DNA of 64,000 bases, taken from Sphagnum compactum. Taxonomy: Eukaryota. Position numbers and translations under genes: made by a program. Location: the NCBI GenBank assembly GCA_965153455.1, contig OZ234493.1, forward strand, positions 2,542,001-2,606,000, in the 5' to 3' direction. Under the pieces are notes generated by a model. It searched no databases. It saw only the letters and a program-made list of their open reading frames with translations, and had not been told where the DNA came from. This document shows, piece after piece, positions 9,201 through 38,114 of the stretch (positions are counted from its first letter, which is position 1; every line of letters starts with the position of its first letter).

Positions 9201-11400
9201 ATTTGGAAATAAACTTCACACTTTTCAGCTAATAATTAATGATAAATTTATTGTAAATATTGTACTTACGAAAAGGTGCATGCATATACATTCAAAGGAA
9301 TCAATCAGATTGTTTTATAAAAGGATTTTGAATATTTATTTAGTCTTTTTCATTTTCTCATATATATTTTTGCAATGAAATCTTTTGCAAGTTGTTATTA
9401 AAAATACACATACTTGCGTGAATATATCTCTTTTTTATGTTAATTATTTTTGAATAAATATAAATTTTTCAGAGTGTGTAAATTTTGCTAAATTTTGTGT
9501 GTGTGTGTTTTTTTTTAATTCATAATTTGAATTATACCCCAAAATTTTTATTTTTTTTTTTGTCTTGTATCATAAATTACAACTTTGTTTTATATGTCAT
9601 ATACAATACACCTCATTTACATGGAGTAAAAGACTTTGAAAATTTAAGATTTTGAAACATATTTTGAATTTTAAAATATTTAAAATTCCAATAACTTTTA
9701 AATTGTGAGTGTTTTTGGAATATGCATAATAAGTTACTATCATTTTTTAAAAATTATTATCAATTTTTTTATTAAAATAGTCCTTACTTTAGTCTTTTAA
9801 AAAATTAATTGATGTTGACATAACTATTATTCAAGTTCAAAAGTCTTTTACTAAAACCAAAACCCAAAATTAAATTTAATATTTTTTTATTTGAATTTTT
9901 CAACATTCAAATTAGTCATTTAGCACAACTTGGAATGATTAAGTAATTTTTAAATGTCAAAATAAAAACATATGTAAGAAAGTTTATAGTTTCCACCACT
10001 ATTTGACATGGTTTTTGGTTCTTTTGAATGTATTCACACCCCAAACACTTCAAAAGTCTGCAGTTTTCAAATGACAAAACATCATATACTTGAATTAACT
10101 TGTATAATGGTTTGAATTGTAATTAATAATTGTTGACATATAAAACTTTAGATAATAATTATGTTGTTTTCTCTTCTTCTTGATATGTTTTTTGATATAT
10201 TTACAATATCAAGGAACAAAAAAAACATAAAATAATTATATTATTTTAATAGGTTTTATGTGCTAATTTAAGCATCTTTGAAAATGAACAAAAGATGAAT
10301 TATCTTAAAGGCTACTTCAGGAGATGAATACTTAAGGAAACAAAAGTTACAAATTAATTAAGCTCATGCAATTTTAAACCATGAACATATTTAACATTGG
10401 CATTGTGATTAGCATTTATCATACACCTAATACATTTGAACTTCTTGATTTTAATAATAAAACTCTCATTTATCCTTACATGAAGAGCTTTTTCTTTGTA
10501 ACTTTGTAAATTGACATGCCTTTCCCCCTTTGATTTTTCATGTCTTCGCCATCACCTTTCATTGTATATTGTTTGACCCATGAAAGAATGCTTCATTAGG
10601 TCATGAAATCATTGCAAAACATGTGTTTTTTAAAATCAAAGGATTCAATTATTGTAATTCTTTTTAGACTTGAGGTGTGTGAACACTATCTTGTTTTAAA
10701 TATGGCATGACATGAAATCATTATAATGCATTTCAAACATAAGTTCAAATGCACCAAGATAGTTGAGTGATTTCAATTATCAACCTTGGACCTAAGTATG
10801 CCTTTTTCAAGAACCATGTAACAAAACTCTATTAGAGTCATAGTTTTTAATGGAAGCTTAAAAGCATAGCATTACCATCTTTTTCAAGTATTTCCAATGT
10901 TTTCCTTCCTCAAATTAATTATTTTCTTCAATTCTTTTTTTCCCAACATTCTTTGCCTCATTGATTACAATCAATCCACATACAACACCCAAGAAGACCT
11001 ATTTGATATTGACCTATTTCATGTCTTGCAAGGAAGTCATTGAATAGTTTGCACGTGAAAGTTTAAGACACAAAAAAAATTTAACTTATTTTTGGGCAAA
11101 GATTTTAAGGGAATGATAGCAACATCAATATATCATATTCTTCCAAAGTGTCATATGACTGAAGTTTTTCCAACCATTGATCAATTTTTGCATGTTGCAT
11201 GCATAGATCATTATAGAAAATGTTATTTCCACAAAAACATGGGATCACAACTTTGAATGGACTAGTCAAAAACACACCTTCAAATGTTTGTAATATACCA
11301 TTCATCAAACACTTTAACAAAATGCAAGAGGCACTAGACTTGAATCTCTTCTATTGCACTAGACTTGAATCATGCAATCCTTTTATTTCATATTGTCCCA
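6230..11400 (-). pseudogene. Decayed multi-exon gene remnant, identity unknown
   Basis: Short minus-strand segments, many ending in GT donors, with protein-like translations: ~11320-11105 (FEGVFLTSPFK...KIDQWLEKLQSY), ~9310-9269 (IDSFECICMHLF|gtaagt), ~7350-7240 (MEDNDLGPLFHKKL), ~6775-6697 (IDCPEEGDVLLIRVLVEEHP*GVKM), ~6572-6540 (DVRPIEVEHAL|gtgggt), ~6395-6255 (ITSWKSLFLW...). There are many stops and frameshifts. Confidence 0.35.
8660..8930. repeat. Degenerate local direct repeats
   Basis: catc(a/c)a(g/a)gttggggc occurs at ~8669, ~8772 and ~8844. The first and third copies continue aaatgatacc...ttttcaa...ag, giving a period of about 175 bp. Confidence 0.6.
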
Positions 11401-11417
11401 TGTATAATTTGTAATGT

Positions 11418-11420
<3 letters not shown>

Positions 11421-11459
<39 letters not shown>
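11421..11459. repeat. (GT)n microsatellite
   Basis: Perfect gt run. Confidence 0.97.
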
Positions 11460-11460
<1 letters not shown>

Positions 11461-12715
11461 CAATTTCCCCTGGGGTTTCATTGGTTGATAAGCTAAGTGA
11501 CATATTTGCTTTCATATGACTATCCCAATTTGATTTTCAATTTCAAATTATCTTTTCAGCTTTCTTATTTATATTTGAAAAATGTGTAATACTTGGTAAC
11601 TAGTTCCATTTGCAAACCCTAAGTGTCTAATTGACAATAAAAAAAAACATATCAATTATATTTCAATGTCACAAATTTCATCAATTGCTAAGAAATTGCA
11701 AACATGAAACCAATAGCACAAGTCGTTGGGAATGACAATTGCCTTGTGGATGCTTGCAGGTTCAATTTACCACTACTAATATGATCATGAGGTTACCTAG
11801 ATGCCATTTGGTGCACCATATTTGACTACCGCAAATGTACTTGGCAAGGTGCACTTCACCCCCCACCCCCTAAAAAGCCCCAAACCCACACACACACACA
11901 TATGAAGAGAATTGGATGCAAGAGAAAACACAAATTGTGATCCCAAGACGCAACATATATATAGGATAGGCTTTTATTACTGATATTTCTTGGACGTTTA
12001 AGGGCATTATGGGTTTCATCACCATTCTATTCATTAATTTTACTTGGTCTTTTTTTGGGGCTTACTTTGTTGGTCATACTATTTTGCAATAAAGCATTGT
12101 GTTTTTTTTAAAGTGAAAATTTGTTATAAGTTAAAAAATTGTATTGTTTTCAATGCCCATTGAACATGAGTTGAGTTTTGAAATTATGACATCGAGCATT
12201 GCTTTCTATGAAAGGCAACTTATTGTTTTGAGGACATAATCCTCACTATATAGGGGTATTTAGGACTTAAAATTACCTTCCAAACGATAACATTATTGTC
12301 CTTTGAATAGCAAAATTGTTGATTGTGTTTTTTGCACCACACGCATTCATCTTGATATGTTATGCAACAATCCAAGATCTTGTTATTTTAATGAATGTTT
12401 GGATGATCTGACTCACTTACATTATTACATTTTTAATGATTAGACCTGCAATAGTTCCCAAAATGGAGAATATTGATTCACTTGTGGAGGGTTGTAGAAA
12501 TATCTTCATTATTAACAATAGATTCTATTGGGTTTTACACTATTTTCAACACCCAAGTAAAAATGTAATCAACTTAACAATCTCCCAAAATTAATTGGTA
12601 AGTAAGCATATGATGCAAAAAGTGATTCTAAATGTTTGAAACAGGATGTGCTCCTAATGACCAAAGTTGTTTTTAGGAGTATCAAACCCTAAATTTTGAA
12701 TCAACACAAAATCAG

Positions 12716-15700
12716 GGGTAATGATGAATGATGGCTTTAACTCTAATGGGATTTAACCATGCTAAAGTTTTGGAGAACTTTGAAACGCATGTTGAAAACT
12801 TATATGAAGGCTTGGATGCCAAGGTGATCTCACTTTAATGCTTGTCAAGTCTTCATGATTGTTATTGAACTATTTAAGGATTTTCTTAAATGTAAAAGCT
12901 CAATCAAAGCAAGTTTAAAAATTAGAGTGTTGTTATTAATTTGTAGAGAATGATATGACAAATTATGTCTACTAATGCCTAAAAATCCTTCAAATAGATC
13001 ACATTCCATCTCTTAGTAATGGAATCACAAAATTTGATAAGTATGTGCCAAATTGCAATTAAAATAATATTTTACACAAGCTTTGAAAGGGCCATGATCT
13101 ACTTTCAATGACTCAATTTGACAAATTATCACAATTTGTCACATATTTGCTTCAAGTTCTATGAACTTTGAAACAATTAACATGAATCATTTGGTAAAAG
13201 AAGACCATATTTTGATATTTTGACCTTGACATTTTGTGCAATCAAATCTATTTGGTTTCCAAAAGATCATAAGTTGTACAATTGTTGAACCTCATGGGAG
13301 CATTTTTGATGTGATAGATAAGTGCAACAAGTGTGTTTCACAATGTTTCACGTCATACCGAATGGTTGGAAATGCTATTGACACATGGCAATGCCCTTGT
13401 ACAAATTTTCAAACCCTTGCAAAAGGGTTGTGTCACAAGTACTCTCGATTTGAATTTTACAAATTGAACAATTATTATAGGTTGACATGATTGTCTAGTA
13501 ACACTTAATTTGTGTTGAACCATTGATGTAATTTACTATAATATTGATGTACTTTCAAGTTATTGCAAACTCAAATTCTGTTAATTATTTTGTGTGGGAA
13601 TGTGAAGGAAGCATTAGCAAGAATATTTAGAGAAGAAGGTCGAAAAAGTTTCAATTTACGATTCAATATAATTTCCATATTTTTCATGTTTTCCCTTTTC
13701 CGAAGATTCCACAAGGTTTTCCATCCTTGTTGGCCACTTTAATTACAGTCATGGGACTTGATTGAACCAAACAAAATGTGAACCATTATGATCATGAATG
13801 CAACCAAAAGGAAACACTATCATGGTTTTATACTAACAGATGGAATTATTTCGTATTAAATAATTACTTTAGCGTGCACTATTAAATATCACAAGAGAAT
13901 TTAAAATTGTTGGTCTTGGGTTGTAGTGTCTTTTAGAGCAAAAGATTGGAAAGACAACCCTACAGATGTTTATTTTGGAAATTCAGTGCATGAGAACAAA
14001 ACTTGTTAAGGTACTAAAAAAGTGGTATTAATTTGGATTTTGAAATGAATGATCTATCTTTTATAATACTAGAAATTTGAGAGAATGGAACCACATAGAT
14101 CTAATATGTTTACATGATTTTTATCACCATTTCCCATATTGGGGCATGCATATAAAACATTTTTCACATTAATGCATGAAAATTTTGTTTAACTAGCAAT
14201 CATTATTTTAAAAATTGTTTTGGGGAAGATTGCTTTTAAACTACAAGATTTATTTTCTGGTGGTTAACAAGGTTATGAAATGTTTGCAAATTGTAGTATG
14301 AAGACACCATTGTAACACCACCCATCGGATATGAGGAATTAGGTGTCACAAATGTTACCAACCTTATTCCAAGATGCAAGCAAGTAAATACAAACCTAGT
14401 CAAAGAAGTCATTATTATTCTAACATACTTGGTTATTACCGGTGTTGTGTGGGCACTTGCTTTGGTGGGTTAGAACTGCCAATTCCAGTTTGGATTAACG
14501 AGTATTGAATCCGAACCTAGCCTGATTTTCAAAACCAGAATCCGAATTTGGTTCCAGTTAGATCTGTTGTCTATAAATGAAAATCAATAAAGACAAAAAA
14601 CTATGAACATATATGATCAGTAATATAATGACATAATCAAGGTTGCATGTGTAGGAAAGGTTATTGTACATGGCCATGGGTTTACTTGTTAACATTGCTG
14701 AAGATGTGACTATTGAAAAGAAAATGCAAAAATGTAATCTTGTGGTATTTATTTCACCCTATTTCTCTCTTCGTGTGTAATGTGTCAAACACACACCTCC
14801 CTTTCCCCGCCCACACAAAAAAGGCACATTATGGCATGAAGGGTTGTGCCTTTATCAAATTGGAAGAGGCACTTAATCATGCTTGTCTCTTTATGTAAAG
14901 TGAAGAGGGTTTTTTTATTAAGAATATTCTTTTTAAATTTTTAATTATTATTTTTGTGCATTTTGTGGATCTTCGTTGGGATTTATTGCTTACTTTATGC
15001 ATTTAAACTTTGACACTAATACATTTTTACTTTCAAAAGGCAGCATATTTTATAAGGGGATTATCCTGGTATATCCTAATTGGTTTTGGAACATTGTTCA
15101 GTAACTATTTGATTTAGCAACAAGTAAAAATTGTTTACCTTTATAGTTTTGTAAGTAATGGGGGATATGACAAATGTAATTACTTTTTTAATGCTTAATA
15201 AAAAAAAGATTTAATGTTTTTCTCATTGGGCTTGACTTCTTCATAGGAACATTTGTGCAAAATATTGAATCAGAAGACAATTACTCTTGTAAACATGTAA
15301 CCTATGTTTCCTTTCCCCATCGTTGCCAGAGGATAATCCCACAAATACTTTTCAATGTTTGGCAATATAAATAGCCTCATTGTAATCCTCATAGTAATGG
15401 AGAACATCATAAGATTGATCAACAAATTCACTTTGAACCTGATTTTTTCTTTAAATGGTAAAATGTAAATAACGTTGTTCAAGAAGCCAAAGTAATATGG
15501 AAATTGTGTTTGATGGCCACAGAACACTTTTATTTTTGAAAAAGCTGAGTATATTTAAAGAAAGTAAGGATGCAATGAAACAAAACAAAATTGTGGATCA
15601 ACTTTCCCATCTTTTCCCTTGCAAACATGAGGTCATTTTTTGTAAAATTTAGCCAACACATATATATTCTGAATTCCAATTATATCATTCAACAAATTGT

Positions 15701-18700
15701 TTCCTCTTTTTTTTTAATTGAAAATTGTGATGCACAACAATCCTTTCATAACAAAACCAAATAAGTGTAAATCCTCAAAAGATTATACCATTAACTAGTG
15801 TTGGTTGAAAATTTCAAGTTTTGTGCAAGTTCATTAGTCTACAAAGAAATCATGTACTATTTAGTCCCACACAGCAGTAACCTTTAAATTGGGGTGCACA
15901 AATTGTCATCTTTAGACTTTGAAATTGTGTTTGATCTTTAGACATCTATAAGATGTTCCTAAATGTAAATTCTAGTTGCAAAATGTATATTTCACTCAAT
16001 TATAAGTGTAGATTGGCAATTTTGGAGTGAATATGTGAACCACTGTGTTGGTATGATGATTGTTTGTAAGGTTCTAGTTGGTAAAAAGTACACAAATTTT
16101 TTTGCAAGTGTTGCTAGTTTCTTCAATGTCATACACTTTTAACATTTGTTTTTCCAATCATATATGGATTGATGTTTGGCACACATGCAGTCCATGTTGC
16201 TTGCTATTTTGAGATTGCTTTGGAATCTATCGTTTGACTATAGCCTCAGGATGGATATGGTACGTTAATCTTTCAATGCTTCATCTAGCACCATTATTAT
16301 TGAAGTAGAATATTTATGGTCGAGATTATAACCAAATTTATAGGTACATCATAAATGAAACATTTTTCTTCCCCAACAAAGTCGATTTGTTATTTCATAT
16401 TATCATCCATGAAATTATGCAAATCAAATATCAATGATTTGGGTGGTGCAGGTTAGATGTAAAATGATACCAATTTTAATTGTTTTTGTCAAGGAACACA
16501 AATTTGAACATTTGGTATGTTGACTTGTCACCTGATTCATTGACATGTTACATTTCATTTGTTAAGAAGACCTCTATGTTGAGCAGGTGGTTATAGGTTG
16601 TAATTGTCTTTGGATCAAGGAATAGATTTATTTAGAATGTCATATTTAATTATTGTGCAACTTGCAAGATTTGTATAAAGGATTTAAAAGTTGGGTAGCA
16701 AATTCCTCATTATTTGTTTATTAAATGAAGATTGTGTTATGTATAATGACTCCCACATTTGACATACTTTTCACCTAGTTTGTAATGTTATTCAAGCCAT
16801 GTTGTAATCATCCATGTTGATTCCATCTTTCCTGCTTCAGGTATATGGACTTCTTTATAATCTATCAATGGATACTACTACCCATTCACAATTTGTTGAA
16901 AGTGAGGTTGTGGCTATGATCCTACAGGTAAAAATCAAAATCAAAATCAAACATTAAGATTTCCAAATATTCTTATTTCACTAATTCACCCCTAACAACA
17001 CAGAGTTATTATTGGTTTCCAAACAAAAAAAAATAGGTGGAAAATTTTACATTAGCCCACAATTGAAATATCTACACAATTGACTATGTGTACATAACGA
17101 TATCACATTTAATTGAATTTATACATCAACATAAATGGAGCCAACAGTGTTGTCATTCATCCTTAAGGTGGGATCTATTGAATATTGAAGATGCAATAAG
17201 AGAATGAAATTAATAAAATTAAATAATAAAGGGTGATTTTGTGTAACAAATCTTGAAGGATCCAAAAAAGTGTTTGATTGATGAGTTGATGGCTCTAGCA
17301 ATCAACCTCACTTGTGTTCATACCGACTCTCAGGTTGTTCTTGAACCCCCTCAGGATACAATTCCCCATATTCACAAATTTTGTGGACATGAATGGAGTT
17401 TTAACTAGTTTACACTCCAAATTATGAGTTGAAACGTCATTTTCACAATTTGGTGTGAACATGCAAATTCCACTTTCTAAATTGCTAAAAATGTAATGAA
17501 AAACAATTTATGTAAGAACAACATGTTATTTTTTAGATTTACTTAAAATTCGTAATAGAAAATATGGGAATTTTATTGCACTTTTTTTTAAAAAATTCTT
17601 TATGTGGACCAGTGATTGATTGGTCAATAGGTTGTTGAGCATAGTAGTCATATTGGAAATTAATATGAATGTGGTTTGGCAGGTTTTGTGTCAGCCTAAA
17701 GCGTTGGAACAACTAATTTCAAAGGCTATCCATGTTGAAAATTTGCTTATTTTTAAGGTGGACAATTAAAACCCTGACCAAATAAATCAGTTACAAATAA
17801 TTGATTGTTTAAAAAAAATTCATTGTGGCATCATAAAACATAATTGTTCAATGTGTGTTTTTTAATTTTAGTTGAAAAGATGCTACAATCATGGTTCAAT
17901 TTCCTTGGATTAGGTCATTCGGAATATGAGCCAACTAAATGATGCAAAGCCTCAAATGTTATTGTAAGTATTAAATAAGTGTCTTAAAATCATTACAGAA
18001 GACATTCTCAAATCAGGAACCTTCAACTACCATCTTCATTTTTTGTCTCATAGCTATTGAACCAGCACAAAATTTGCATAAGGATGATATTAGGAAATGG
18101 TGCGGCTTGACATATGTGGTCTCCAGAATAATGTGTGAGATTTATGGTGATGCCTTGTCATGTTGTGTATCGAGTCTCTAAACTTGGAACACTTCAAAGT
18201 TATTAGGATTATTGAATTGGTGATATGATTTAGGACATTTTCTTTTACAATAATTGTAAATCTATCAACAGGATGTCAAGATTTTGTTTGGTATTCAGAG
18301 GTTTGAGAATTTAAAGAATTGAGCATAAAACATTAAATGTTTTCACAATGCAGTGCCTTACCTGCCTTGGTTGACCTGTTGTTGACATCTCACACAACAA
18401 TCCCTCTCCAGGTCAATTTGTTGTTGTTTTCACATTTTGAATGTGCTTACATCCTTTTTATTCAATGTTTTTGCTAAACCATTTGTGTACTCATTTCATT
18501 CCCATGTGCATTTTTGAGTTGGATAAAAGGTGGAATTTTTACATGGTAACTTGATCATGAGGGCATGGACATATTTTGTCTCAATGCATGGGAATTTTAC
18601 TTCAAAAAATTATTGAAGCCATATTTTCACAATAATTCACATCCATGGCTTCAATTGCAAATAAGAAACTACACTATAAGAACTAAAGCATTGTCAATTA

Positions 18701-21216
18701 ATATCTCTTACCACATATTTGTGAAGGTGGAAGTGATTGGGACACTTAACAATTTGTCAAGTATAGAAGACAGTTTTGATACAGTGGTAATCAAGACAAG
18801 CCTGGTGCAATATCTAGTGATGCATATGCAACTTGGGATCATGGAAGATGACCTAATTTTAGAGGTTGCTCCAATTTAAAGATCCCACTGATGTTCATGA
18901 CTTTGATTAATAGTTGAATTGCCCTTTCCACAAGTTGTTGTTACCCTATGTTTTTCGTACTACTTGTGTTCGATGCTCATTAACAAAAAATTGAACTAAA
19001 TTAAATATATAACCACTTGCAAATTTTCATATGTTATATGCCTTCATCAATTTGAACAAGTTTAATAATAGATTGTCAAGTGACATTTATAGATGGAGTT
19101 GACCAACATGTGTTATGTAGATGACAATGTTTGTAGGCGGGGTATGTTCAGAAAAGACGTCATCTTTTCTCTCTAGTTCTAGCTTGGTCTGTGATTCTTC
19201 TAACTTGCACACATCATCGATGCATTAACCAATTTTGATTTTAAGACCATGAATAGAATTGTATAAAATTCTGCACATATTGGTTCAAATTATGAAGTCT
19301 AAGTGAAATTTTTGATGAAGTTCCTCCATTTGAAATTCAAATGATTATTTTTAGTAATCATTTATTTCAAAATTATCATTTCACCACTATAATGATGATC
19401 AAGTAGTTCAATTGGCAGGTAAATAAAATGTGCAGCTTGTTTCTTGATGTCAAAGCAGATGAGGATTTGATAACTCAGGTGTCCTATCAAAATAGAAATT
19501 AAAAATGGAGTTTTTTAAATACTAAATTAATTGGGAGAAAAGCATTTTTAAGTGTGAACTTGGTGTGCACAAGGTTTTCAACTCTAGATAAGATTTTAGT
19601 TTAATTTTTATCAAATGTTGATTTGAACATGATCTTGGACCACTCTCTTTGGGGACACTGTTGAATGTGCTTTGACTTTCAAACTTTGATTCTTAAATAT
19701 GTCAATGTTATCTACTAAAAATATTTGTGTTGGTCAGTTATTGTTCACATTTTGCCAACTTTTGCTCTATAAAGAGACAAGGGAGGACATTACTTCCAAC
19801 ACCAAGGTATCATAATTTCTGGATTAAGATGTTCTGACAGGTTCATATACCAGTATTTCTTCTCTTGGTTGATGTGAGACTTCCAACATACTTAGCAACA
19901 ATAAGTACAAGATCCAATTCACAAGTAATTAACAGTCAGTTGGTGCATATTGTCATATCAAAACTCACAACTAGAGTCACAACAATACAATATATAATAC
20001 CTTGTTGATGGTTTAGACATTTTATCAGAAACATTTTATGGTTAATTTGCTAACACAAGGGGATGAACTTTTAAATACCATTTAATTAGAGATAAGTTAT
20101 TGCAAATTTGTTAAATAGTCCATAGTTGACCATATTGCAAGGACCTTCAATTGTAGCTTATGAGAAACTATATTGTACTTAAGATTATGCATTAATACTA
20201 CATAACATTTATGTCAATGTGGATTCCACAAATGGATTTGTATATTTGCAGGTGGTTGTTTCAATCTTCAAGTTATCTCAGGTTTCTTTCTTTGGTCTTT
20301 ATTGCTAGGTGATCAATCACATGGTAACAAGTCCTGATCAATTCCAATCATTGTTCGATTTGAAGTGTTGGGTTTGTATTTTACATAACATGGGATGGTG
20401 AGGGGATGATCAGCATTTTGTACTCAAGTGGAAAAAGATTTGCTTTCGCACATGGTGCAATTTAGCCTTTGGCAAGAGTGGCACATAGCAATGTCTGTGG
20501 GTTTTGGAATCAATTTCTCACACAAAATTGAAGCTGAGAGACTAGGATCTAAACATAATGAAAATCCCCTATTCTCATTAGCTTAAATTGAAACATCTAT
20601 TGATCCCATTTTTAAAGTAACTAGTGTTTAAATTGTGCTTGTAAATGCCATTTCAACCTAAGGGATTGTGATTTCTTTGGAGTCCAGGGTTATGCAATAA
20701 GTGACCAATTTTACCAATGCTACAAGATGTTTGAAATTCACATACTTCCGTGTGGGTGGGAAAGCAGGATGCAAAGCAAAACAGTTCAGTTAAGGAAGTA
20801 GCAAATGTCACTACACAAACAATTGCTGAAGTGGATCCAAAATGGGGCGCCAGGATCCAATGGTGGAGATTTGCTACCCATAATTTTGATAGGCTTCTAA
20901 TGTTGCAGGTGCACATTTCATACATGATGGATGTTATAACATTGATCTTAACTGTATAAACTCCAAACCCCAAACAAATATAATTTACCATGACAATAAT
21001 ATACAATCCACACAGAGTATATATGTTTGGCAATTAGGCAAGTGATAAAAGGAGGTAAAAGTCAATCATTCCAAATTTGCGTTAACCCTAAACCTCTAGG
21101 AATAACTGACAAGTCAACATATCACCTAATGATAAAAACAAGTTACAAATTCATATGTTTATATGTATAGTAATACTCCCTTGTTGAGTTTGTTTCAGGA
21201 ACTTGAACAAGTTTGA
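12716..21216 (+). pseudogene. FLA3: Kinesin-II-associated protein (KAP3/KIFAP3/FLA3, ARM repeats, intraflagellar transport), apparently pseudogenised
   Basis: Exons collinear with remembered KAP3: 12716-12823 (ENFETHVENLYEGLDAK), 13318-13387 (ISATSVFHNVSRHTEWLEMLLTH), 13597-13715 (EALARIFREEGRKSFNLRFNIISIFFMFSLFRRFHK), 13927-14010 (LLEQKIGKTTLQMFILEI), 14297-14383, 14655-14733 (ERLLYMAMGLLVNIAEDVTIEKKM), 15523-15631 (FLKKLSIFKESKDAM...FPCKHE), 16191-16259 (LRLLWNLSFDYSLR), 16452-16514, 16841-16927 (VYGLLYNLSMD), 17683-17757, 17914-17963 (VIRNMSQ), 18354-18411, 18727-18864 (VEVIGTLNNL...MEDDLILE), 19436-19478, 19738-19806, 20252-20281, 20768-20908 (IAEVDPKWGARIQWWRFATHN), 21199-21216. Lesions are listed under findings. 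Weaker 5' exons may lie at ~11700-11850 and ~12450-12560. Confidence 0.88.
14430..14565. repeat. Short repeat or MITE-like insertion in a KAP intron
   Basis: A GC-richer block with recurring gaacc/ggttcc words inside an AT-rich intron. Termini are not resolved. Confidence 0.35.
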
Positions 21217-22227
21217 TCAGTTGATATGTGGGCCACACAACTTCGAATGGGTTGGATTAGTCAATGCACACTTATGATACTATCCTATCATTTAATGATG
21301 CATAGATGCATAACCACATATAACAAATTTGTAGTCCCATGGTTATATGGGTTTTTTAAGCGCCAACAAAACAAGTTGTGTAGGCCAATTGGGATATGAA
21401 AACAAAATGATGTTAGCGACTTTGATTGTATATTTGCTTGTTGGTGGTGGCTAATAAAAGAATGTAACAATGAAGTTACAACTAATAAGGTGGATACAAT
21501 AGATCCCATAACTTTCTAAATTTAAGTGGTCCAAGCTATGCTTTGGCTAATGTCATTATTTTGCACCTTCATGACCTTGGTGTGTCCCTCGGAAATAAAA
21601 TTTGTTTGGAAAGCAAAACATTAGTCACGATAAAGTTTTCAGCACAAGGAAGGGAACTCCACACCAGGAGTCAAAGTTTTTCCATAAAGGCAGGGGTGAG
21701 CTCACAGTGAGATCAAAATGTAACACTACAAAGAAACACTAGCATGAAACAGAGCCTAAAACTCCTTTCTCCTCAATGTTAGTAGTGAAACAGGATTCAG
21801 CTTGAAGTTTTAATTTGAAAGGCTAAAGGTGAGATCAAAATCCAACACTTGAAAAATACACTGGAGCCTTCCATCAGCTTCAAAAAATTTGGCACATAGT
21901 GGCTGAGGAGCTAAGGGTTCCTCAAATGGTCCACAGTGTAGCACCCAGTCCAGACCAATCTGGAAATCACTGAGCTTCAATGGATGAATGTACAGACATT
22001 CTGATGATTGGTTTAGACTGGTGCTACCATCTAGATAACAAGAGAGTTGATTGACAACAACAGGATTTCAGCAAGCTTCTGCCACAAAGGATAGAGTGAT
22101 GCCATTAAAACTGCAACTGCATACAAACTCATACAGGGCCCATATCTATGAAGTTGCAGAGAATTCTGCACAATGTCATTCTGAAGATAACACAACAATA
22201 CGCGCAGTCAAAATCTTTGGAAGTCAG

Positions 22228-22500
22228 TCACAAAGTTTCAGACCATAACCTTCATCATTTATAGCAGTGACAAGCTACCATGACTAGCCACAAAATAATG
22301 GGTGCAAATAAGTACAGTAATCTGCCCAAAATTTGGGACAAACCACTATACAAAATCTGTGTCCAAGTTCTGTCACATTTCCAGAAGCAAACAGGAAGAC
22401 TCAGTCATGATGCACACATGAGACATATGTAATAGAAAAAGGATGCATACAGAGCCCACTATGCAACCACAAAGTAAAGCTGCAGCAATATCGTGAAAAT
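22228..22500. repeat. Dispersed ~250-bp repeat, copy 1 (3' of MBD9)
   Basis: Shares tcacaaagt..tcagaccataaccttcatc and ttctgtcacatttc..gaagc.aacaggaagact with 29111-29340 and 35051-35300. Confidence 0.8.
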
Positions 22501-22716
22501 GATTGCACATTTCCAGTTGGTGTTATCAAAATATTTACATCTTCGACAATAGGAACCCTCTGCAATCACAAGTACACTTACTACAAAATATCAAATGTGA
22601 AGACTTGACAAAAATTAATTGTCAGGCAGTCCAGTGATGTGGAAGCAACATGATGGAACCTGATCATTACAAACTCAATAAAATCTGCAATCACCTTACT
22701 CAACCAATTGCCAGTT

Positions 22717-25700
22717 CTACTTTGTCTTCACATGCAAATGTCGCTTCTTCTTCCCTTTCCTGCCTGAAGTTGTTGGATGTTGTTTCTCTTGATCAGACTT
22801 TCCCTTTATTCTGTATGTTATTGAAGCATCAAGTGCATATAGCTTCAGAGCCAGTGAAGACACTGTAACAGATCGAGCAGCGGCAGAGAGAGAAGACCAC
22901 TGGCACCAGGTTTTCTTGAGAAATTCTACTTTCACCATCTGTTCCAAAAGAATTATAGCTTTTGTCATCTGCAATCATCAGCAGGCCAAAAAAGCAGTAT
23001 AAAGGTATAGTGATCAGTAGGACTCCAGATACGTAGAAGCAAACTAATTTTCCTTTTTACCGCAACCTTATGTACAAACAGGCTAGTGTTGTAAACCATC
23101 TGACACATCCAAACAGGATGGATCAATAGGGTAACTTATTGAGGCTCTAATCTCATATCAGTTTATAATTGGCCATCTCATTCCACCAGTGAGTACCCGA
23201 GGTAGCCCTGCAGCAATCTGATTGCTGAGTGGACCACCTACACCCTCAAAAACAATCAACATGTATTACATGGCACCTTCTGATTGACTGATGGACCCCC
23301 AGCCCTCTGGAGTTGCATATGTGATGGCTGAAGGCTAATTGCATCATGCACTTATGTTATCTTTTCAGCTAATTTCAAAATTACTTGCAGAGACATGATA
23401 CTGGTACTACTGGTACACATCACAAGGTATACCAACAATACCTAGAGGCCACTGTCCTAATCTGATGTGCACCTCTTTGCATAGTGTAGCAAATCCAAAT
23501 TGCTGGAGCAGCACCATTCATTCAATTCCATTCTGCTCACGGAGGTCAAGACAGGGCTGCAGCACTACTCTCTACACTGGTTGAACCAGGCATGGAGAGC
23601 TCTCTATTTTATTTTCAACAATATCCATATATAACATTCAACTGAACTGGATTCACAAAACTGAGACTGGAACGTTACCTGATAGATACAGGTCGTAGAT
23701 TTGACAAGAAACCTCCATGCACGTCGCCTTACAGGAGATGATCGAGCAGGCTCCAGCATGTCTTTTGTCATGGCTGCCTCTATATCCAACAACCTTAGTT
23801 GAAGCCCTCTAAGAATTACTTTCTGTTCACCAACCAGGGGACATGTTGCAGCTTCCAGAACTGGAAACTTCTTTGCAGGCTTCTTTCCTGTAACACCAAC
23901 AGGCATTGCAGTCTCTGGGCCACAGCTCTGCTCACTGGTATCTTGCTTGAAACCCTCTGACTGCACTTCTCCCAATGGTGCAGTGGATGATGGCACTGAA
24001 TCCTCTCTAAGCACGACATTGTCTACATTTGCATAAGAACTGGGATAATAGCCTTCAATATCACCATCCAATCTCTCATTGACCTGGCATGTCGTTGGAG
24101 GTACATTCACAAGATAGTCCCATTTATAGTCCAACAAAGTGATTGCCTCAGGTGGGAAAAGACCAAAATCATCTCCAGTCTCATTGGCAAGAACTGGGTC
24201 AGTGCAGGTGACTCCAGTGCCTTGAGCATCATTCCACGACACAGTACCAAGTTCTTCTATCTCAAATTCCTTGGGTTCCACCTCTCCACTAGGAGGGGAG
24301 AGAGGTTGGGTTAGTGGCAAGGACAACTGATCATTACTAGTGGAGAAAACATCCTCCATGCAGGGATAGCAGGGTTGGATCATGAGAGAAGGATCAAATA
24401 CAGGCGCAAAATGAAGGGCAGGCGCAAATGTAGGACATTGGTCTGCAAGCCACCCAATTTGAAGTACTCTATCTCTTGTTGAATTGGAACTGGAGAAAGA
24501 CATTTGCATGGAGGCATAATCAACAGGAGCCAAGGCCTCTTTGCTAACCACCTGAGTTGATGATAATTTGTTAGCTTTCCTTTTACCACCTTGGGATCCT
24601 TGCTTCTTCTGTTTTGACTCCATCCTTCCTCGCCAAATGCTTGGAACCTGCTCATTGTGAAGCTGTGAGTCTCCATGAAAGCCACTGTGGAAGAATGGAT
24701 CCATGGGCTCCTCATGTGTGATCCATTTGCTACCATTCATTTGGGGTTGATAGTCTTCTTGTGCAGGACCTGTACTCCTGGTAGCTGGTCTAGAGGAAAA
24801 CACTGAAGCTTCCTCAATCATGCACAATCTCTCTGCACTGTGGGGTCGTTTAAGATTTTCATTATCCCCAGACAATCTAGTGCATTTTGAACTTCCAGGC
24901 CTTGATTCTGTTTTTCTCTCAGATGAAGCTGAATTAATTACCATTCCAGAAGATGAGTTTCCCCATTTCCTCTTATTAGAGAGGGGTTGGGTCTCTACCT
25001 CCTGAAAGTCAGTGCCAGGACTCTGTACTATGGGGCACGTCTTTTGATGATTCAGAAGCTCCACTGAGGATTCATATGTTTCATGGCAACTCTGGCAGTG
25101 TGACCTAGTTCTCCACAAAGGCTCCAGACATTCGCAGCGATTCAGTTGCTTGATTGAAGATGAGGACTCACCAGATGACCCATACCTTGCCTCAAGGATA
25201 ACAGTTGCGTTCACCCTTGGGAAAATGTCTGCACCAATTCTGGAAGGCTTCCTGGTAGTCATCATCACAGGATGAACTGACTTATCTCCCTCCTTGCCTG
25301 AAATGCTGCAACTTAAAGGCAATTTTACTTCATTCAATTCTTCATCAGGATGCTGATGCTTTGTAAACACTGACCTTCGCCATTCATGAATAGAAACCTT
25401 AAGAGATCTTTCTCCCTTGCTTTCAGAGATCAGCCATGAGACCAAGTTATCAAGGGCTTCCTCACCCTTGTAAACCCACCACTGGTATCCCTTTGATTCC
25501 TTCCTTCCTCCACTTGACTCTTTTACTTCTCCATCTGCACATTGACACAACAACCCACAACTTAGTACTATCCTGCAATTGAGTCAACTTAAGAGGCCAA
25601 GTACCTTCTCATGCAGTACATGCGTACTGAACAGCTCATGAACTCTGAGTTCCAACCATTTACAACCATCAACCCCATGATGGGTACTGCATACCCATAT

Positions 25701-28700
25701 ATGATACCACAAGGAAACACAGAAGTGAAGACATTAAGCACAACATCTCAGCATATAGAACCCACTGGAGAGAGCTCACAAACCCACTTTCTCCCAGTTA
25801 TATTCCATTTCAAATGCAGAAAAAAATTGGTTGGACATGCAAACTTACCATCCTCTAGACAACCTACTTTAAACTTCATTTTCCTGCTTTCAACAGTACC
25901 ACCATCCATTCGACCAGAAGTAGAAACTCCAGTTGCTTCAATAACAAAATCTTCCTCAGCAACAACCAAGAAGGGTTGATTGTCAGACCCACAAAAAGCC
26001 CAATATTCCCGTCCCAAGTCATCTGTACCCAAATGGTCACGGCGCACATTCATATTCCATAGCTTGGTCTCTACCTGTCCAATTTCTGCATCCAACTTAC
26101 GCAGTAAATCCTGCAATTTTTCTGCAGAGTCAGCATTATTTTCCAACAACAGTGAAGGTTGCAGTTTGCTCAAATTTGTAGGTGTGGGGTCTTCTCCAAT
26201 ATGTTCTGATCTCCCCACTTTCAGATCACCAGAGTCTGGTCCTACCTCATGGCAAAGATCTTCCCTGTCATCCAACAATGGTGGTGCCATTTCCATTGTA
26301 ACTGCATCTGATGGACCATCAATAACCACACCCAAGGCTGATGTCCCATGAGAACTTGTAAGTTGCTTACCATCCACACCATTCTGCATTTTGCTAAACC
26401 TGATGCTCTCTAATGTCACATCAGCTACCTTCTGCTTTAACAACCATTCTGCGTTCTTGTCTTCAACAGAACCAATCTGACTGAAGATCCCTGTCCTTTC
26501 AGCCTCCTCAGAATTTTCTTCATTGCCATCATGTAACTGTGTTGCCATTCCAAGCTTCTGTTTCAGACATTGTGGTAGCAGGCAGCCCCTTCCAACATTT
26601 TCCTTGGCCAAGTTAGCTCTATTAGTGAGGGTACCAGGGGAGATTGCAAGTTCTGCATCCTTATGACACAAATGCTTCCTTGCAGACTCGGTAGCCTCCA
26701 ATGTTAGGTTATTTCCAGCCTTAAATTGCTTCACGCACAACTCTTCAGTGATGTTAAAGTCTTCAAGCTGAGAACAGGACATCAAGATGTCAGCTTTACC
26801 ACCTTCTCTACAACAAACATGAGGCAGATCAGAGATATGAGAGCGCAGAGTACATGACATGCCCTCACTCTCCATATCAGTAAGAGTCCTGCCTCTTTGA
26901 GAGGTAAGACCTTTAGGTAGGCCATTATTGGCTTTAGTCTCATCAGGAGGAACATCTTCACAAACAAACTTCTCCTCAACCATCTCAGGATGTGGTTGTA
27001 CTGTAACCTTACTGGATGCCTTGAGCTGATCAGATTGAATCATCTCTCCTCTCTTCATACCCATGTGGACATCAGCATATGTATCCTCAATTGCCCTTGT
27101 CAGCTCCAATCCATCTGCAACAGGACCAGACTTCAACCGTTTGTTGCTCCTATCAGCTCCTCCCTCTAAGTTGTCCCCCTCTTGCAAGTACACTGCTACA
27201 GGTGCTAAATTACTCATGTTGTGAATTTCTTCTTCATGCTTCCTCTTTGTTCTGTCAGATGCTATTTGGAGAGTCAAAGGAACACTGGTTTCAGTTATGG
27301 TTGATGGAAACATTTCTGGCTTTTTCTCATCACCTGGTTTGTCAATTACCAGTGTCTCCATAGACAAACAGACCTTATAAGCCCCATGATTCATCCCAGC
27401 TGCATATACATCTAACACTTTCCCAGTCAGATTTCCCCCACTGTCCTCGACCCCCTCCTTCACATTATATTCAAGTTTAAGATTTTTTGGCAAAGTAGGG
27501 TTGCGACTGGCAGCCACTGCAGAACAAGATGACCTACTTCGTAGCCTGGCTGCCCAAGAATCTGTGTTCACATCATGTAGAGGTTCCACAACCATTGCTT
27601 GTGCACTTTGTCCTGGTGTTGTACTTGTTATCTGAATTTGCTCATTGGGTAATCTTGAATGGTGCACATTTTGACACTGCTCAGCCTCCAATGCTTCATC
27701 ACGCTTAACACTTAACACACGAAGCTGCATTCGGAGCTCAGAAGCTGTGTCCAAACTTTTTTCTAGGTGTGCACGAATTTGGGGTGTCTCAAGTGCATTG
27801 TCACAAAGAATCTTCAGGAACTGAACCCTCTGATAGTTGGAATTAACCCAGCAAACAAAGACAATTCAAGTTAGGAAACCCTGATTCCAAAGACACCCAG
27901 GCCTCCCGATTGTATTCAGCCAGAGAGCCCACTTCTTGTTGTACCTCAACAACAATATATCACAGAACTACTAGTGATCAGTCAACTCCAGAGTAATCAT
28001 AAGGTTCACGGGCATGATAACTCTGGGTTATACACCTTGAGTTCAGCAAACTCAGGACTTCTCTTCATACTACAGATAGCACATTTCACGAAGGCACATT
28101 CAGGAATATAAAAACTGCACAAAGAACTTATTTGACAGTTCCATTCACTATGAAACCTTTCAAGATTCACAAAGGGTGCATTCAGACTTACATCTGCTAG
28201 ACTCCAATGGCAGTAGTCCATTGCACCAATCCTCTCCAACAATGTGTGTGCTGGACTCTCCACAAAAGGGGTCTGAACTCGAGGCAGTTCCCCTTCACTT
28301 TCCAATGTATCATCCAGGAAACCATAGGCAGGTACATGTCCATCTTCACCTTCTAGTCCATTGACAGCATTCTTCACCCCAGTTTCTTCCCCTCCAACTA
28401 CAGCAGTTGCCTCTGGAAAACCCCTCTTCACAGAAACACATGATGGGCAAAACCAATTTCCTTCAGGTACTTTTTGAAGGGGTGGATCCAAGCAATAGGT
28501 ATGGTATTCAGCTTCACAACCATCACATAACATAATTCTCTCATAATCTTCATCCACGCCACAAACCCGGCACGTATCATCATCTTCCCAGGGAGCCTTC
28601 AGAAGTTTTCCTGGCTTCTCTGGTATCTCCACTCCATTACCAACATCCTTCTCCAGGAACTTCCTGTCCATGTGATCAGCATCTCCATAACTATTGCAAG

Positions 28701-37700: not shown

Positions 37701-38114
37701 CCAGTTCTCAACATTATTTTCCACCACCATTCTCTTCAACTTCAGTTGAAATTCTACACTAGGGACCAAAATGCAAAGTTCCTTCTCCATGCAACCTGTC
37801 TGGCTACCTTCAACCTCATTAACTTCCTTGGTGGTTCCCAAAATTGAACAGCTCACAGATCTGTCCTTAAAACAACCAGACAAAACACTCTTGTTCCCAG
37901 TTAGCTGCTCAACACTTGCATCTTCTGTAGTCAGAGTGTGGTTCTTTGAGCCCCCAGAAGTCACACTTCCCACAGAGTAAATATTCTCCCGCTCACCTTC
38001 TCCAAGGCTGTTAGTTTTCAAAAACCTTAACCCCCCAATTTCCAGAACAGGGTCTGTAATCTCTCTTGATGAGGACCTGCACACACACGCATGTTCCTTC
38101 TTCTCAGTATTCAT
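22717..38114 (-). CDS. MBD9: Methyl-CpG-binding domain protein 9-like (PHD, MBD, FYR, DDT, bromodomain, PHD, WHIM), about 3,200 aa
   Basis: Phase-consistent exons: 38114-37292, 37060-36133 (PHD CHCC...CDSCESSFHLHC...WHCLAC), 34509-34071 (MBD, GWDV...KYFVSPDKQRFRSRLEV), 33728-32726 (GYKSTWHD.ETGS), 32430-32234, 31833-30922 (DDT, AWEFLHRFSELIG; VTWPELA), 30558-30265 (PTNVGARIR, KGNASGPTK), 29926-29618 and 29475-29377 (RPLDFRTIDARLAAGAYGG bromodomain), 28743-28192 (KAPWEDDDTCRVCGVD PHD), 27829-25849 (WHIM, RRDHLGTDDLGREYW), 25534-23679, 22968-22717 (WSSLSAAA...SSLALKLYALDASI). The exons sum to 9645 nt. The first exon and its donor are the least certain part. Confidence 0.93.
29111..29340. repeat. 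Dispersed ~250-bp repeat, copy 2 (MBD9 intron)
   Basis: Similar to 22228-22500 and 35051-35300, in the same orientation. Confidence 0.8.
35051..35300. repeat. Dispersed ~250-bp repeat, copy 3 (MBD9 intron)
   Basis: Similar to 22228-22500 and 29111-29340, in the same orientation. Confidence 0.75.

What the first reader, a model, noticed from the sequence alone, without database searches (positions are those of the whole stretch)
12716..21216. Hidden flagellar kinesin-II accessory gene (KAP3/FLA3), almost invisible to the ORF track
Seen: about 19 short exons, most with intact AG/GT boundaries and compatible phases, whose translations follow KAP3 in order (LYEG..AKV, ALARIFREE, LLVNIAED, FLKKLSIF, LWNLSFD, LYNLSMD, IRNMSQ, GTLNNL, EDDLILE, W...I...RF..HN). 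Only two of these exons appear in frame as KAP peptides in the ORF track. Known: KAP is the non-motor subunit of heterotrimeric kinesin-II for anterograde intraflagellar transport; among land plants it is expected in lineages with flagellated sperm. Inference: the source is a plant with swimming sperm, and this locus could easily be missed by automated annotation.
Basis: partly seen in the sequence, partly recalled or inferred. Interest (0 to 1): 0.8.

Follow-up and report, generated by a model that had tools for sequence, protein, structure and literature searches.

The report
Intact kinesin-II accessory (KAP) gene in moss
This stretch of a moss genome holds a complete, evolutionarily conserved gene of about 20 small exons for KAP, the non-motor subunit of the kinesin that builds flagella, so it is an ordinary sperm-flagellum gene that is easy to mis-annotate.

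Summary
On the + strand, 12728-20959, lies a 20-exon (19 if E5 is skipped) gene for a roughly 566-aa kinesin-associated protein (Pfam KAP, PF05804).

- **Specificity:** all 17 profile hits of 3 bits or more in the whole 64 kb window, both strands, lie in this locus, on the + strand and in profile order.
- **Splicing:** every junction has a frame-compatible GT-AG pair.
- **Family match:** the spliced product scores 595 bits as one domain against a profile of 23 KAPs. It is 48% identical to a liverwort KAP, 34% to a Chlamydomonas KAP and about 30% to animal KAP3.
- **Selection:** in three related contigs, exons differ by 1.6-2.2% against 4.1-4.4% for introns. There are 0 exon indel events against 40-44 in introns, 113 of 114 splice dinucleotides are kept, and dN/dS is 0.19-0.42. 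The gene is functional, not a relic.
- **Source:** a neighbour gene's only organism-named relatives are mosses.

The protein is a natural "delta-N" KAP: it lacks the N-terminal domain and C-terminal tail of algal and animal KAPs. It was silent in one polyA RNA run in which the neighbouring gene was covered, as expected for a sperm-only gene.

This is a new member of a known family. Interest is moderate because mosses are reported to have a single kinesin-2 motor and no IFT dynein.

The parts
12728..12823 (+). E1, from the ATG; encodes the LYEGLDAK motif (N-terminal helices of the KAP core)
   Evidence: Profile hit 134-156 at 9.5 bits. Three in-frame stops lie just upstream. Donor AAG|gtgatc. 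2-3 of 96 differences in relatives; ATG and GT kept.
13318..13398 (+). E2
   Evidence: Profile 156-183 at 11.7 bits. Junction scores 37.8 and 84.6. AG and GT kept in 3 of 3 relatives.
13608..13715 (+). E3, ALARIFREEGRKSF motif
   Evidence: Pfam KAP 33.2 bits, above the 25.6 cut-off. Aligns to KAP3 chain 9w9h_C residues 178-211. 0-1 of 108 differences in relatives.
13927..14004 (+). E4 (the donor could equally be at 14010; both are phase 0)
   Evidence: Profile 220-244 at 16.2 bits. Donors score 50.5 against 50.4. Both donor sites are identical in all relatives.
14297..14383 (+). E5, probable exon in the variable linker, ends ..RCKQ
   Evidence: Acceptor ttgtag|, donor CAA|gtaaat, phase 0/0. 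Fills the 30-40 residue segment ending ..KQ in liverwort KAPs. AG and GT kept and no indels, but divergence of 3-4 of 87 is intron-like. This is the weakest exon.
14655..14744 (+). E6, LLVNIAED motif
   Evidence: Pfam KAP 18.1 bits at profile 263-294. Own profile 42.8 bits. Junctions.
15247..15296 (+). E7 (ends in phase 2)
   Evidence: Only 1.6 bits alone, but the joined peptides score 56.3 and 61.4, well above the alternatives. 1-2 of 50 differences in relatives.
15523..15631 (+). E8, FLKKLSIF motif
   Evidence: Pfam KAP 29.9 bits, above the cut-off. Own profile 46.6 bits.
16191..16259 (+). E9, LWNLSFD motif
   Evidence: Pfam KAP 13.1 bits at profile 346-370. Own profile 30.4 bits. Junction score 89.8.
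16452..16514 (+). E10
   Evidence: Profile 382-404 at 5.8 bits. Junction scores 51.8 and 43.3. 0 of 63 differences in all three relatives. Exactly the segment missing from the Riccia sorocarpa model.
16841..16927 (+). E11, LYNLSMD motif
   Evidence: Profile 402-435 at 23.7 bits. Donor CAG|gtaaaa.
17259..17333 (+). E12
   Evidence: Profile 433-464 at 12.2 bits. In L001 this AG is lost and a new AG 12 nt upstream keeps the frame.
17683..17757 (+). E13
   Evidence: Profile 445-486 at 16.8 bits. Junction scores 41.4 and 35.2. Exactly the segment missing from the Selaginella model.
17914..17963 (+). E14, IRNMSQ motif (ends in phase 2)
   Evidence: Profile 486-501 at 4.1 bits. Donor ATT|gtaagt. 0 of 50 differences in relatives.
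18354..18411 (+). E15
   Evidence: No own profile signal. The joined peptide scores 54.5 and aligns without a gap to Calypogeia ..LVDLL... 0-1 of 58 differences.
18727..18864 (+). E16, GTLNNL and EDDLILE motifs; the longest internal exon
   Evidence: Pfam KAP 18.6 bits at profile 484-555. Own profile 43.4 bits. 0-1 of 138 differences in relatives.
19121..19186 (+). E17
   Evidence: Profile 570-592 at 7.4 bits. Junction scores 66.5 and 31.5.
19419..19478 (+). E18
   Evidence: Profile 591-613 at 8.7 bits. Exactly the segment missing from both Riccia models.
19738..19806 (+). E19, LLLYKETR motif
   Evidence: Profile 607-634 at 19.1 bits. Donor AAG|gtatca.
20768..20959 (+). E20, last coding exon with stop 20957-20959; W..I..RF..HN motif (C-terminal helices). 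The acceptor may be 20765, a tandem CAG|CAG-type site.
   Evidence: Pfam KAP 16.8 bits at profile 632-675. Aligns to KAP3 9w9h_C residues 645-687 of 693. L001 has an earlier stop nine codons before the end, so the last ~15 residues are not constrained.

Best explanation
This is the intact, expressed-when-needed orthologue of kinesin-associated protein (KAP, known as KAP3 or KIFAP3 in animals and as KAP in Chlamydomonas) in a moss. It has 20 small coding exons over 8.2 kb and encodes about 566 residues. The protein corresponds to the armadillo-repeat core of KAP: N-terminal helices, ARM1-11 and C-terminal helices. By homology, the superhelix takes the C-terminal tails of a kinesin-2 motor dimer into its central groove and links the motor to intraflagellar-transport trains. 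It would therefore be needed only while the two flagella of the spermatozoid are built. Shown here: family identity, gene structure, purifying selection and the moss origin. Inferred: binding to kinesin-2, a role in anterograde IFT and expression limited to antheridia.
For: (1) Pfam KAP hits on 6 of 16 raw frames, in profile order, two of them above the gathering score.
(2) Whole-window control: 17 of 17 hits of 3 bits or more are in this locus, on the + strand and in order.
(3) All 19 introns are GT-AG with compatible phase.
(4) The spliced 566-aa product scores 595 bits as one domain over profile 135-688 of 761. BLASTP identity is 48% to Calypogeia, 44% to Riccia fluitans, 38% to Chara, 34% to Chlamydomonas schloesseri KAP and about 30% to animal KAP3.
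(5) The tree places it in a land-plant KAP clade (SH-aLRT 100) and outside the liverworts (98) (quick tree only).
(6) Three related contigs at 94-95% identity give exon divergence of 27, 34 and 37 of 1701 against intron divergence of 280/6440, 263/6332 and 261/6327 (Fisher p 1e-8 to 9e-5). Indel events are 0 in exons against 44, 40 and 41 in introns (p 3e-5 to 7e-5). 113 of 114 splice dinucleotides are kept, and the one lost acceptor is replaced in frame.
(7) dN/dS is 0.19, 0.32 and 0.33 for window against relatives and 0.41-0.52 among relatives. dS of 0.04-0.047 matches intron divergence. Deficit of nonsynonymous changes: p=3.5e-5, 1.6e-3 and 0.013 for the three pairs tested.
(8) The neighbour gene's named relatives are mosses only, and mosses have biflagellate sperm (established knowledge).
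(9) KAP-1 lacking its N-terminal domain (residues 123-679) is sufficient to bind the paired motor tails (PMC12289918, passages read). The moss protein covers the equivalent span: frog KAP3 127-690 and 9w9h_C 178-211 and 645-687.
(10) One polyA RNA run has 0 reads on 11001-21672 while the adjacent gene has depth 2-9. This fits tissue-restricted expression.
Against: - There is no transcript evidence for any junction. The single RNA run laid shows the locus silent, which a dead gene would also give.
- dN/dS of 0.2-0.4 (up to 0.5 in the near-identical pair, based on 3 changes) is only moderate constraint.
- E5 diverges at the intron rate, and E7 and E15 have no profile signal of their own.
- One relative (L001) has an earlier stop in the C-terminal tail.
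- The N-terminal domain of about 130 residues found in algal and animal KAPs is absent from the window.
- Mosses are reported to have one kinesin-2 motor (PMC3472504, PMC4947347, passages read). Canonical KAP recognises hetero-paired tails (PMC12289918), so the partner is not obvious.
- DNA run X1 shows a depth hole over 15.0-21.0 kb, which could mean a relative lacks most of the gene. The tool warns that a hole proves nothing.
- The fold and the Pfam score of the whole spliced product were not tested with the curated tools.
Confidence: 0.8

Rival explanations
1. The gene is a functional KAP kept for a job other than classical anterograde IFT. Possibilities are cytokinesis or membrane traffic in spermatogenous cells, or flagellar length control with an atypical single kinesin-2.
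For: In the fern Marsilea the single kinesin-2 is needed for cytokinesis of spermatogenous cells and for cilium length, and is called atypical (PMC4947347, abstract and passages). Orthologues of DHC16 (cytoplasmic dynein 2), IFT43 and DYNC2LI1 were found in a liverwort and a hornwort but in no other land plant (PMC9237703, passages), so moss IFT is already reduced. The land-plant KAP clade has long branches (stem 0.82, window stem 0.98).
Against: The retained part of the protein is exactly the motor-tail-binding core. IFT-B orthologues are reported in all land plants with flagellated sperm (PMC9237703). Nothing here points to expression outside sperm development (one search shows silence in one sample).
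Confidence: 0.12
2. The locus is a recently inactivated or decaying KAP gene, a unitary pseudogene that merely looks intact.
For: There are no RNA reads in the one run laid. L001 has an earlier stop in the tail and a lost acceptor. No moss KAP protein is listed among database hits. X1 shows a possible depth hole.
Against: The 1701-nt frame is open in the window, L002 and L003, and in L001 up to nine codons before the end. There are no exon indels against 40-44 intron indel events. Exon divergence is half that of introns. dN/dS is significantly below 1. The lost acceptor in L001 is compensated in frame.
Confidence: 0.05
3. The exons belong to another armadillo-repeat family (importin-alpha, beta-catenin-like or ARABIDILLO type) rather than KAP.
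For: One frame gave a weak generic Arm hit (PF00514, E 0.13). ARM repeats can cross-match.
Against: The only significant Pfam family on the exons is KAP, in profile order from position 165 to 675. The PDB best hits for E3 and E20 are KAP3 or KAP chains. The nearest proteins all carry PF05804. The tree nests the protein inside KAPs.
Confidence: 0.01

Closest known systems
Liverwort and lycophyte KAP homologues deposited as 'hypothetical protein' (Calypogeia fissa P0021, Riccia fluitans P0020, R. sorocarpa P0003, Marchantia paleacea P0022, Selaginella moellendorffii P0006, Diphasiastrum complanatum P0004)
   Same: PF05804 proteins of 470-660 aa that start shortly before the LYE motif and end shortly after the W..I..(K/R)F motif. 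They lack the algal and animal N-terminal domain and long C-terminal tail. Identity to the window's product is 36-48%, and they fall in the same land-plant clade.
   Different: The window's protein comes from a moss and sits outside the liverwort group. It contains segments E10, E13 and E18 that individual deposited models lack. No moss member is among the 120 listed hits.
Chlamydomonas KAP, the non-motor subunit of the FLA10/FLA8 kinesin-2 (that the FLA3 locus encodes KAP is recalled, not from a call)
   Same: Collinear over the whole ARM core. Identity to the C. schloesseri orthologue P0033 is 34% across window residues 15-542. Per the abstract of PMC11380706 seen in the listing, Chlamydomonas kinesin-2 consists of FLA8, FLA10 and KAP.
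   Different: The algal protein is 842 aa, with about 200 extra N-terminal and about 90 extra C-terminal residues. It works with two different motors and a full retrograde IFT system.
Animal KAP3/KIFAP3 and C. elegans KAP-1 (structures 9w9h, 9w9i and 9ikb; PMC12289918, PMC12551710)
   Same: About 30% identity over frog KAP3 127-690. E3 and E20 align to KAP3 residues 178-211 and 645-687. The moss protein matches the KAP-1 delta-N construct (123-679) that binds the motor tails.
   Different: The moss protein has no N-terminal domain (said to be of 'unknown functions' in KAP-1) and no C-terminal tail. Animal KAP binds hetero-paired tails of two distinct motors, whereas mosses are reported to have one kinesin-2.

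Membership tests
KAP (Pfam PF05804, kinesin-associated protein) | Match to the curated PF05804 profile at or above the gathering score (25.6 bits) | tested here: met
   Single exons E3 (33.2 bits) and E8 (29.9 bits) pass alone. Four further frames hit KAP at E 0.00058-0.027. All six hits are in profile order (6 of 16 frames submitted). The whole spliced product could not be given to the Pfam tool.
KAP (Pfam PF05804, kinesin-associated protein) | Collinear coverage of the conserved core (N-terminal helices, ARM1-11, C-terminal helices) | tested here: met
   One domain, 595 bits, covering profile 135-688 of 761 and protein residues 12-550 of 566, against my profile of 23 PF05804 proteins. Ungapped against Chara, Chlamydomonas and frog apart from the tail.
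KAP (Pfam PF05804, kinesin-associated protein) | Groups with KAP orthologues in a phylogeny | tested here: met
   Land-plant clade SH-aLRT 100; the window lies outside the liverworts (98). This is the quick IQ-TREE run; the careful search did not finish. 19 rows.
KAP (Pfam PF05804, kinesin-associated protein) | N-terminal domain of about 120-130 residues found in algal and animal KAPs | tested here: not met
   No hit above 0.5 bits to profile positions 1-134 anywhere in the window. The same absence is seen in deposited liverwort and lycophyte homologues. This domain is not required for tail binding in KAP-1 (PMC12289918), so it is not family-defining.
KAP (Pfam PF05804, kinesin-associated protein) | Armadillo-repeat superhelical fold | not tested
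The fold is inferred from sequence homology only.
Heterotrimeric kinesin-2 holoenzyme | Physical binding of KAP to kinesin-2 motor tails | not testable with these tools
   No moss kinesin-2 sequence was available, and no genome is held for the window.
Heterotrimeric kinesin-2 holoenzyme | Two distinct kinesin-2 motors in the same genome | not testable with these tools
   No genome is held. The literature reports one kinesin-2 in Physcomitrella (PMC3472504 Table 1 and text; PMC4947347).
Flagellar or IFT gene set of plants with motile sperm | Expression in spermatogenous tissue | tested here: inconclusive
   One polyA RNA run of unknown tissue shows 0 reads on the locus while the neighbour gene has depth 2-9; about 12% of the run was read.

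The most novel reading that the evidence does not exclude
Mosses may run flagellar assembly with a non-canonical kinesin-2 holoenzyme. It would combine a single motor species (a homodimer) with a naturally N-terminally truncated KAP, in a lineage reported to lack the retrograde IFT dynein. The KAP gene would have gone unnoticed because gene finders skip or mis-join its 50-140 nt exons. If so, KAP's 'co-recognition of hetero-paired tails' is not universal, and land plants offer a minimal anterograde-only IFT motor.
Probability: 0.3. Interest if true: 0.6.

Novelty: new member of a known kind. Interest (0 to 1): 0.4.

Why it matters
Two papers on plant kinesin-2 leave its composition open. Shen et al. 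2012 infer that the single moss kinesin-2 'will only homodimerize'. [quoted passage not shown] Neither reports KAP in a plant: the term does not occur in Shen et al., and the Marsilea paper uses it only to define the canonical heterotrimer (passages).

A selectively maintained KAP gene in a moss supplies a concrete candidate partner and makes the question testable by pull-down, co-folding or knockout. It also shows that the anterograde motor's accessory subunit persists in a lineage reported to lack cytoplasmic dynein 2 and IFT43.

On the practical side, the exon map gives a template for repairing KAP models in bryophyte and lycophyte annotations, where whole exons are missing.

Tried and rejected
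- **Own genome:** not held, so kinesin-2 and IFT genes of the same organism could not be sought.
- **Exon E16 as a query for longer proteins:** found only two unspliced read-through ORF calls, which were no use as references.
- **Run search:** no RNA holder was listed. Six DNA holders held 0.30-0.32 of the sampled words.
- **Rfam:** no family at gathering score in the window.
- **N-terminal-domain exons:** none found anywhere in the window.
- **E1 against PDB sequences:** no hit.
- **Sliding-window conservation across 12.0-21.5 kb:** at about 5% divergence it is too coarse to reveal or exclude further 5' or 3' exons. Low-variation blocks inside the 961-nt last intron were not explained.
- **Extra exon between E19 and E20:** considered and rejected, because liverwort models join the same residues directly.
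- **Splicing after ..LMLQ|gtgcac to a further exon:** considered. It is neither supported nor excluded. The tail after that point is unconstrained in L001.
- **Repeat search between 21.5 and 29.9 kb:** nothing of 60 nt or more.
- **Literature query:** too loose to be informative. Searches were the useful ones: 1 irrelevant paper and 0 papers.
- **Hodges et al. 2012 (New Phytologist):** cited by others but not held. It may contain a KAP presence/absence table that I could not see (recalled, not read).
- **Careful tree search:** did not finish in the time allowed, so only the quick tree is reported.

Full report
**Observation.** I submitted 16 raw stop-to-stop frames to Pfam. Six matched the KAP family (PF05804) and no other family significantly. 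The profile coordinates rise along the DNA: 165-203, 263-294, 312-346, 346-370, 484-555 and 632-675. Two single exons exceed the curated 25.6-bit threshold on their own, at 33.2 and 29.9 bits.

**References and specificity control.** A HMMER search with exon E3 returned KAP proteins, which Pfam confirmed. A second search with the Riccia sorocarpa protein gave 232 relatives, of which 120 were listed. I built a profile from 23 of them. Scanning every stop-to-stop fragment of the whole window on both strands gave 17 hits of 3 bits or more. All 17 are on the + strand between 12758 and 20911, in profile order from position 134 to 689, and nothing elsewhere reaches 3 bits. Chance does not produce this.

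**Gene model.** For each of the 18 junctions between the 19 profile-supported cores I listed all GT (or GC) to AG pairs that keep both frames open. I scored the joined peptides against the profile. Every junction has a clear best GT-AG solution. The alignment to liverwort KAPs left one gap of 30-40 residues. It is filled by a further exon, 14297-14383, with a ttgtag acceptor and a CAA|gtaaat donor in phase 0/0. This exon ends in ..KQ, as in the references. The model has 20 coding exons of 50-192 nt and 19 introns of 156-961 nt. Exon GC is 36% and intron GC 31%. The ATG is at 12728, preceded by three in-frame stops, and the stop is at 20957-20959, giving 566 residues.

Small ambiguities remain:
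- the E4 donor may be 14004 or 14010;
- the E20 acceptor may be 20765 or 20768;
- E5 may be a cassette exon;
- E7 and E15 rest on junction scores and conservation rather than their own profile signal;
- 5' UTR exons, and whether the last 15 codons are used, are unknown.

**Identity.** The spliced product scores 595 bits as a single domain over profile 135-688. BLASTP identity is 48% to Calypogeia fissa, 44% and 42% to the two Riccia species, 38% to Chara, 36% to Selaginella, 34% to a Chlamydomonas KAP and about 30% to animal KAP3. A quick maximum-likelihood tree of 19 rows puts it in a land-plant clade (SH-aLRT 100) with Selaginella and the liverworts, but outside the liverwort group (98). The careful search did not finish. 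No exon for the N-terminal part of the profile (1-134) exists anywhere in the window. The protein corresponds to frog KAP3 residues 127-690. E3 and E20 align to residues 178-211 and 645-687 of the solved KAP3 chain 9w9h_C.

**Is it alive?** Three contigs of close relatives were fetched. They align at 94-95% identity across the locus.
- Exons differ at 27, 34 and 37 of 1701 sites. Introns differ at 280/6440, 263/6332 and 261/6327 sites (Fisher p 1e-8, 1e-5 and 9e-5).
- There is no indel event in any exon, against 44, 40 and 41 events in introns.
- 113 of 114 splice dinucleotides are kept. The single lost acceptor (E12 in L001) is accompanied by a new AG 12 nt upstream, in frame, which restores the length seen in liverworts.
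- Nei-Gojobori dN/dS is 0.19, 0.32 and 0.33 for the window against L001, L002 and L003, and 0.41-0.42 for L001 against L002 and L003. It is 0.52 for the near-identical pair L002/L003, based on only 3 changes. dS of 0.04-0.047 equals the intron divergence. The deficit of nonsynonymous changes is significant (p 3.5e-5, 1.6e-3 and 0.013).

Against this, L001 has a stop nine codons before the end, E5 diverges at the intron rate, and constraint is moderate rather than strong.

**Expression.** No indexed RNA holder was listed. The one raw-read polyA RNA run offered was laid on 11001-31000. It has 0 reads on 11001-21672, while the adjacent minus-strand gene has depth 2-9; about 12% of the run was read. 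A sperm-specific gene would give this, and so would a silent one. It confirms no junction.

**Source organism.** A long single-exon coiled-coil gene at 51.9-54.3 kb has 15 relatives at E of 1e-10 or better. The only three with organism names are two Ceratodon purpureus proteins (59% and 56%) and one Physcomitrium patens protein (51%). The best hit, at 97%, is unnamed.

**Mechanism (inferred).** In C. elegans, KAP-1 lacking its N-terminal domain (residues 123-679) forms an ARM superhelix. Its central groove holds the two folded motor tails, and its C-terminal helical hook is captured by the segments preceding the tails. The N-terminal domain is of 'unknown functions' (PMC12289918, abstract and passages). 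The moss protein is a natural equivalent of that core. I infer that it binds the tail region of the moss kinesin-2 and couples it to IFT-B trains during spermatid flagellum assembly.

**Context that makes it more than routine.**
- Physcomitrella is reported to have a single kinesin-2, said to 'only homodimerize' (PMC3472504, Table 1 and text).
- Cytoplasmic dynein 2 (DHC16), IFT43 and DYNC2LI1 were found in a liverwort and a hornwort but in no other land plant, while IFT-B is kept (PMC9237703, passages).
- In the held library, one unrelated paper contains both 'kinesin-associated protein' and 'Physcomitrella'. No paper contains all of KAP, kinesin-2, Selaginella and Physcomitrella.
- Hodges et al. 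2012 is not held and might list KAP.
- No moss protein is among the 120 listed relatives of the Riccia KAP, where a moss orthologue should rank near the top (only proteins of 304-970 aa and the 7999 best word-sharing candidates were scored).

**Annotation difficulty.** Deposited orthologues carry gaps that match my exons. Riccia sorocarpa lacks E10 and E18, R. fluitans lacks E18 and Selaginella lacks E13, each exactly. Marchantia paleacea lacks E5 plus E6 to within one residue. Chara, Chlamydomonas and the animals have all of these segments. This supports conserved intron positions across land plants and shows that gene finders mishandle this gene.

**Verdict.** This is a real, intact, selectively maintained KAP gene in a moss. 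It is a new member of a known family, of moderate interest.

Noticed in passing
window 23604-38114, minus strand: A large multi-exon gene with MBD (PF01429), two PHD fingers, and DDT and WSD motifs. This is the domain set of plant MBD9-type chromatin proteins (the name is recalled). It is covered at depth 2-9 in RNA run X7, with first mates on the + strand.
   Followed up: partly
window 51877-54291, + strand: An open frame of about 800 codons encoding a coiled-coil protein (DUF7653). Its named relatives are only from the mosses Ceratodon and Physcomitrium (51-59%). I used it to place the window taxonomically.
   Followed up: partly
window 15003-21005 (run X1): DNA run X1 drops from about 130 to 0-13 word depth over most of the KAP gene, and shows a contig joint from 25327 to 15449. 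Run X4 has one 19.5 kb contig across the whole stretch. This could be a deletion or rearrangement in that relative, or a filtering artefact.
   Followed up: no
window ~21673-23006 and ~29010-29676: Word depth is 10-40 times the single-copy level in three DNA runs, with many short cross-joints and RNA reads. These look like fragments of a high-copy repeat. No repeat of 60 nt or more links the two places within the window.
   Followed up: partly
L001, aligned to window 17245-17258 and ~20924: Relative L001 has lost the E12 acceptor AG and gained an in-frame AG 12 nt upstream, which adds four codons. It also carries a TAC to TAG change that ends the protein nine codons early.
   Followed up: yes
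window 12721-12756: A short upstream ORF (ATG plus 10 further sense codons, then a stop) in another frame overlaps the KAP start codon and is also open in the relatives. It matters only if the 5' UTR includes it.
   Followed up: no
proteins P0003, P0020, P0022, P0006 (deposited liverwort and Selaginella models): Deposited KAP models lack whole exon-equivalents (E10, E13, E18, E5+E6) and are named 'hypothetical protein'. These are probably annotation errors that could be repaired.
   Followed up: partly
window 11412-11467: A (CA)n-type microsatellite lies about 1.3 kb upstream of the gene. The 8-21 kb region is AT-rich (GC 27-36%) compared with 40-47% in the neighbouring gene.
   Followed up: no
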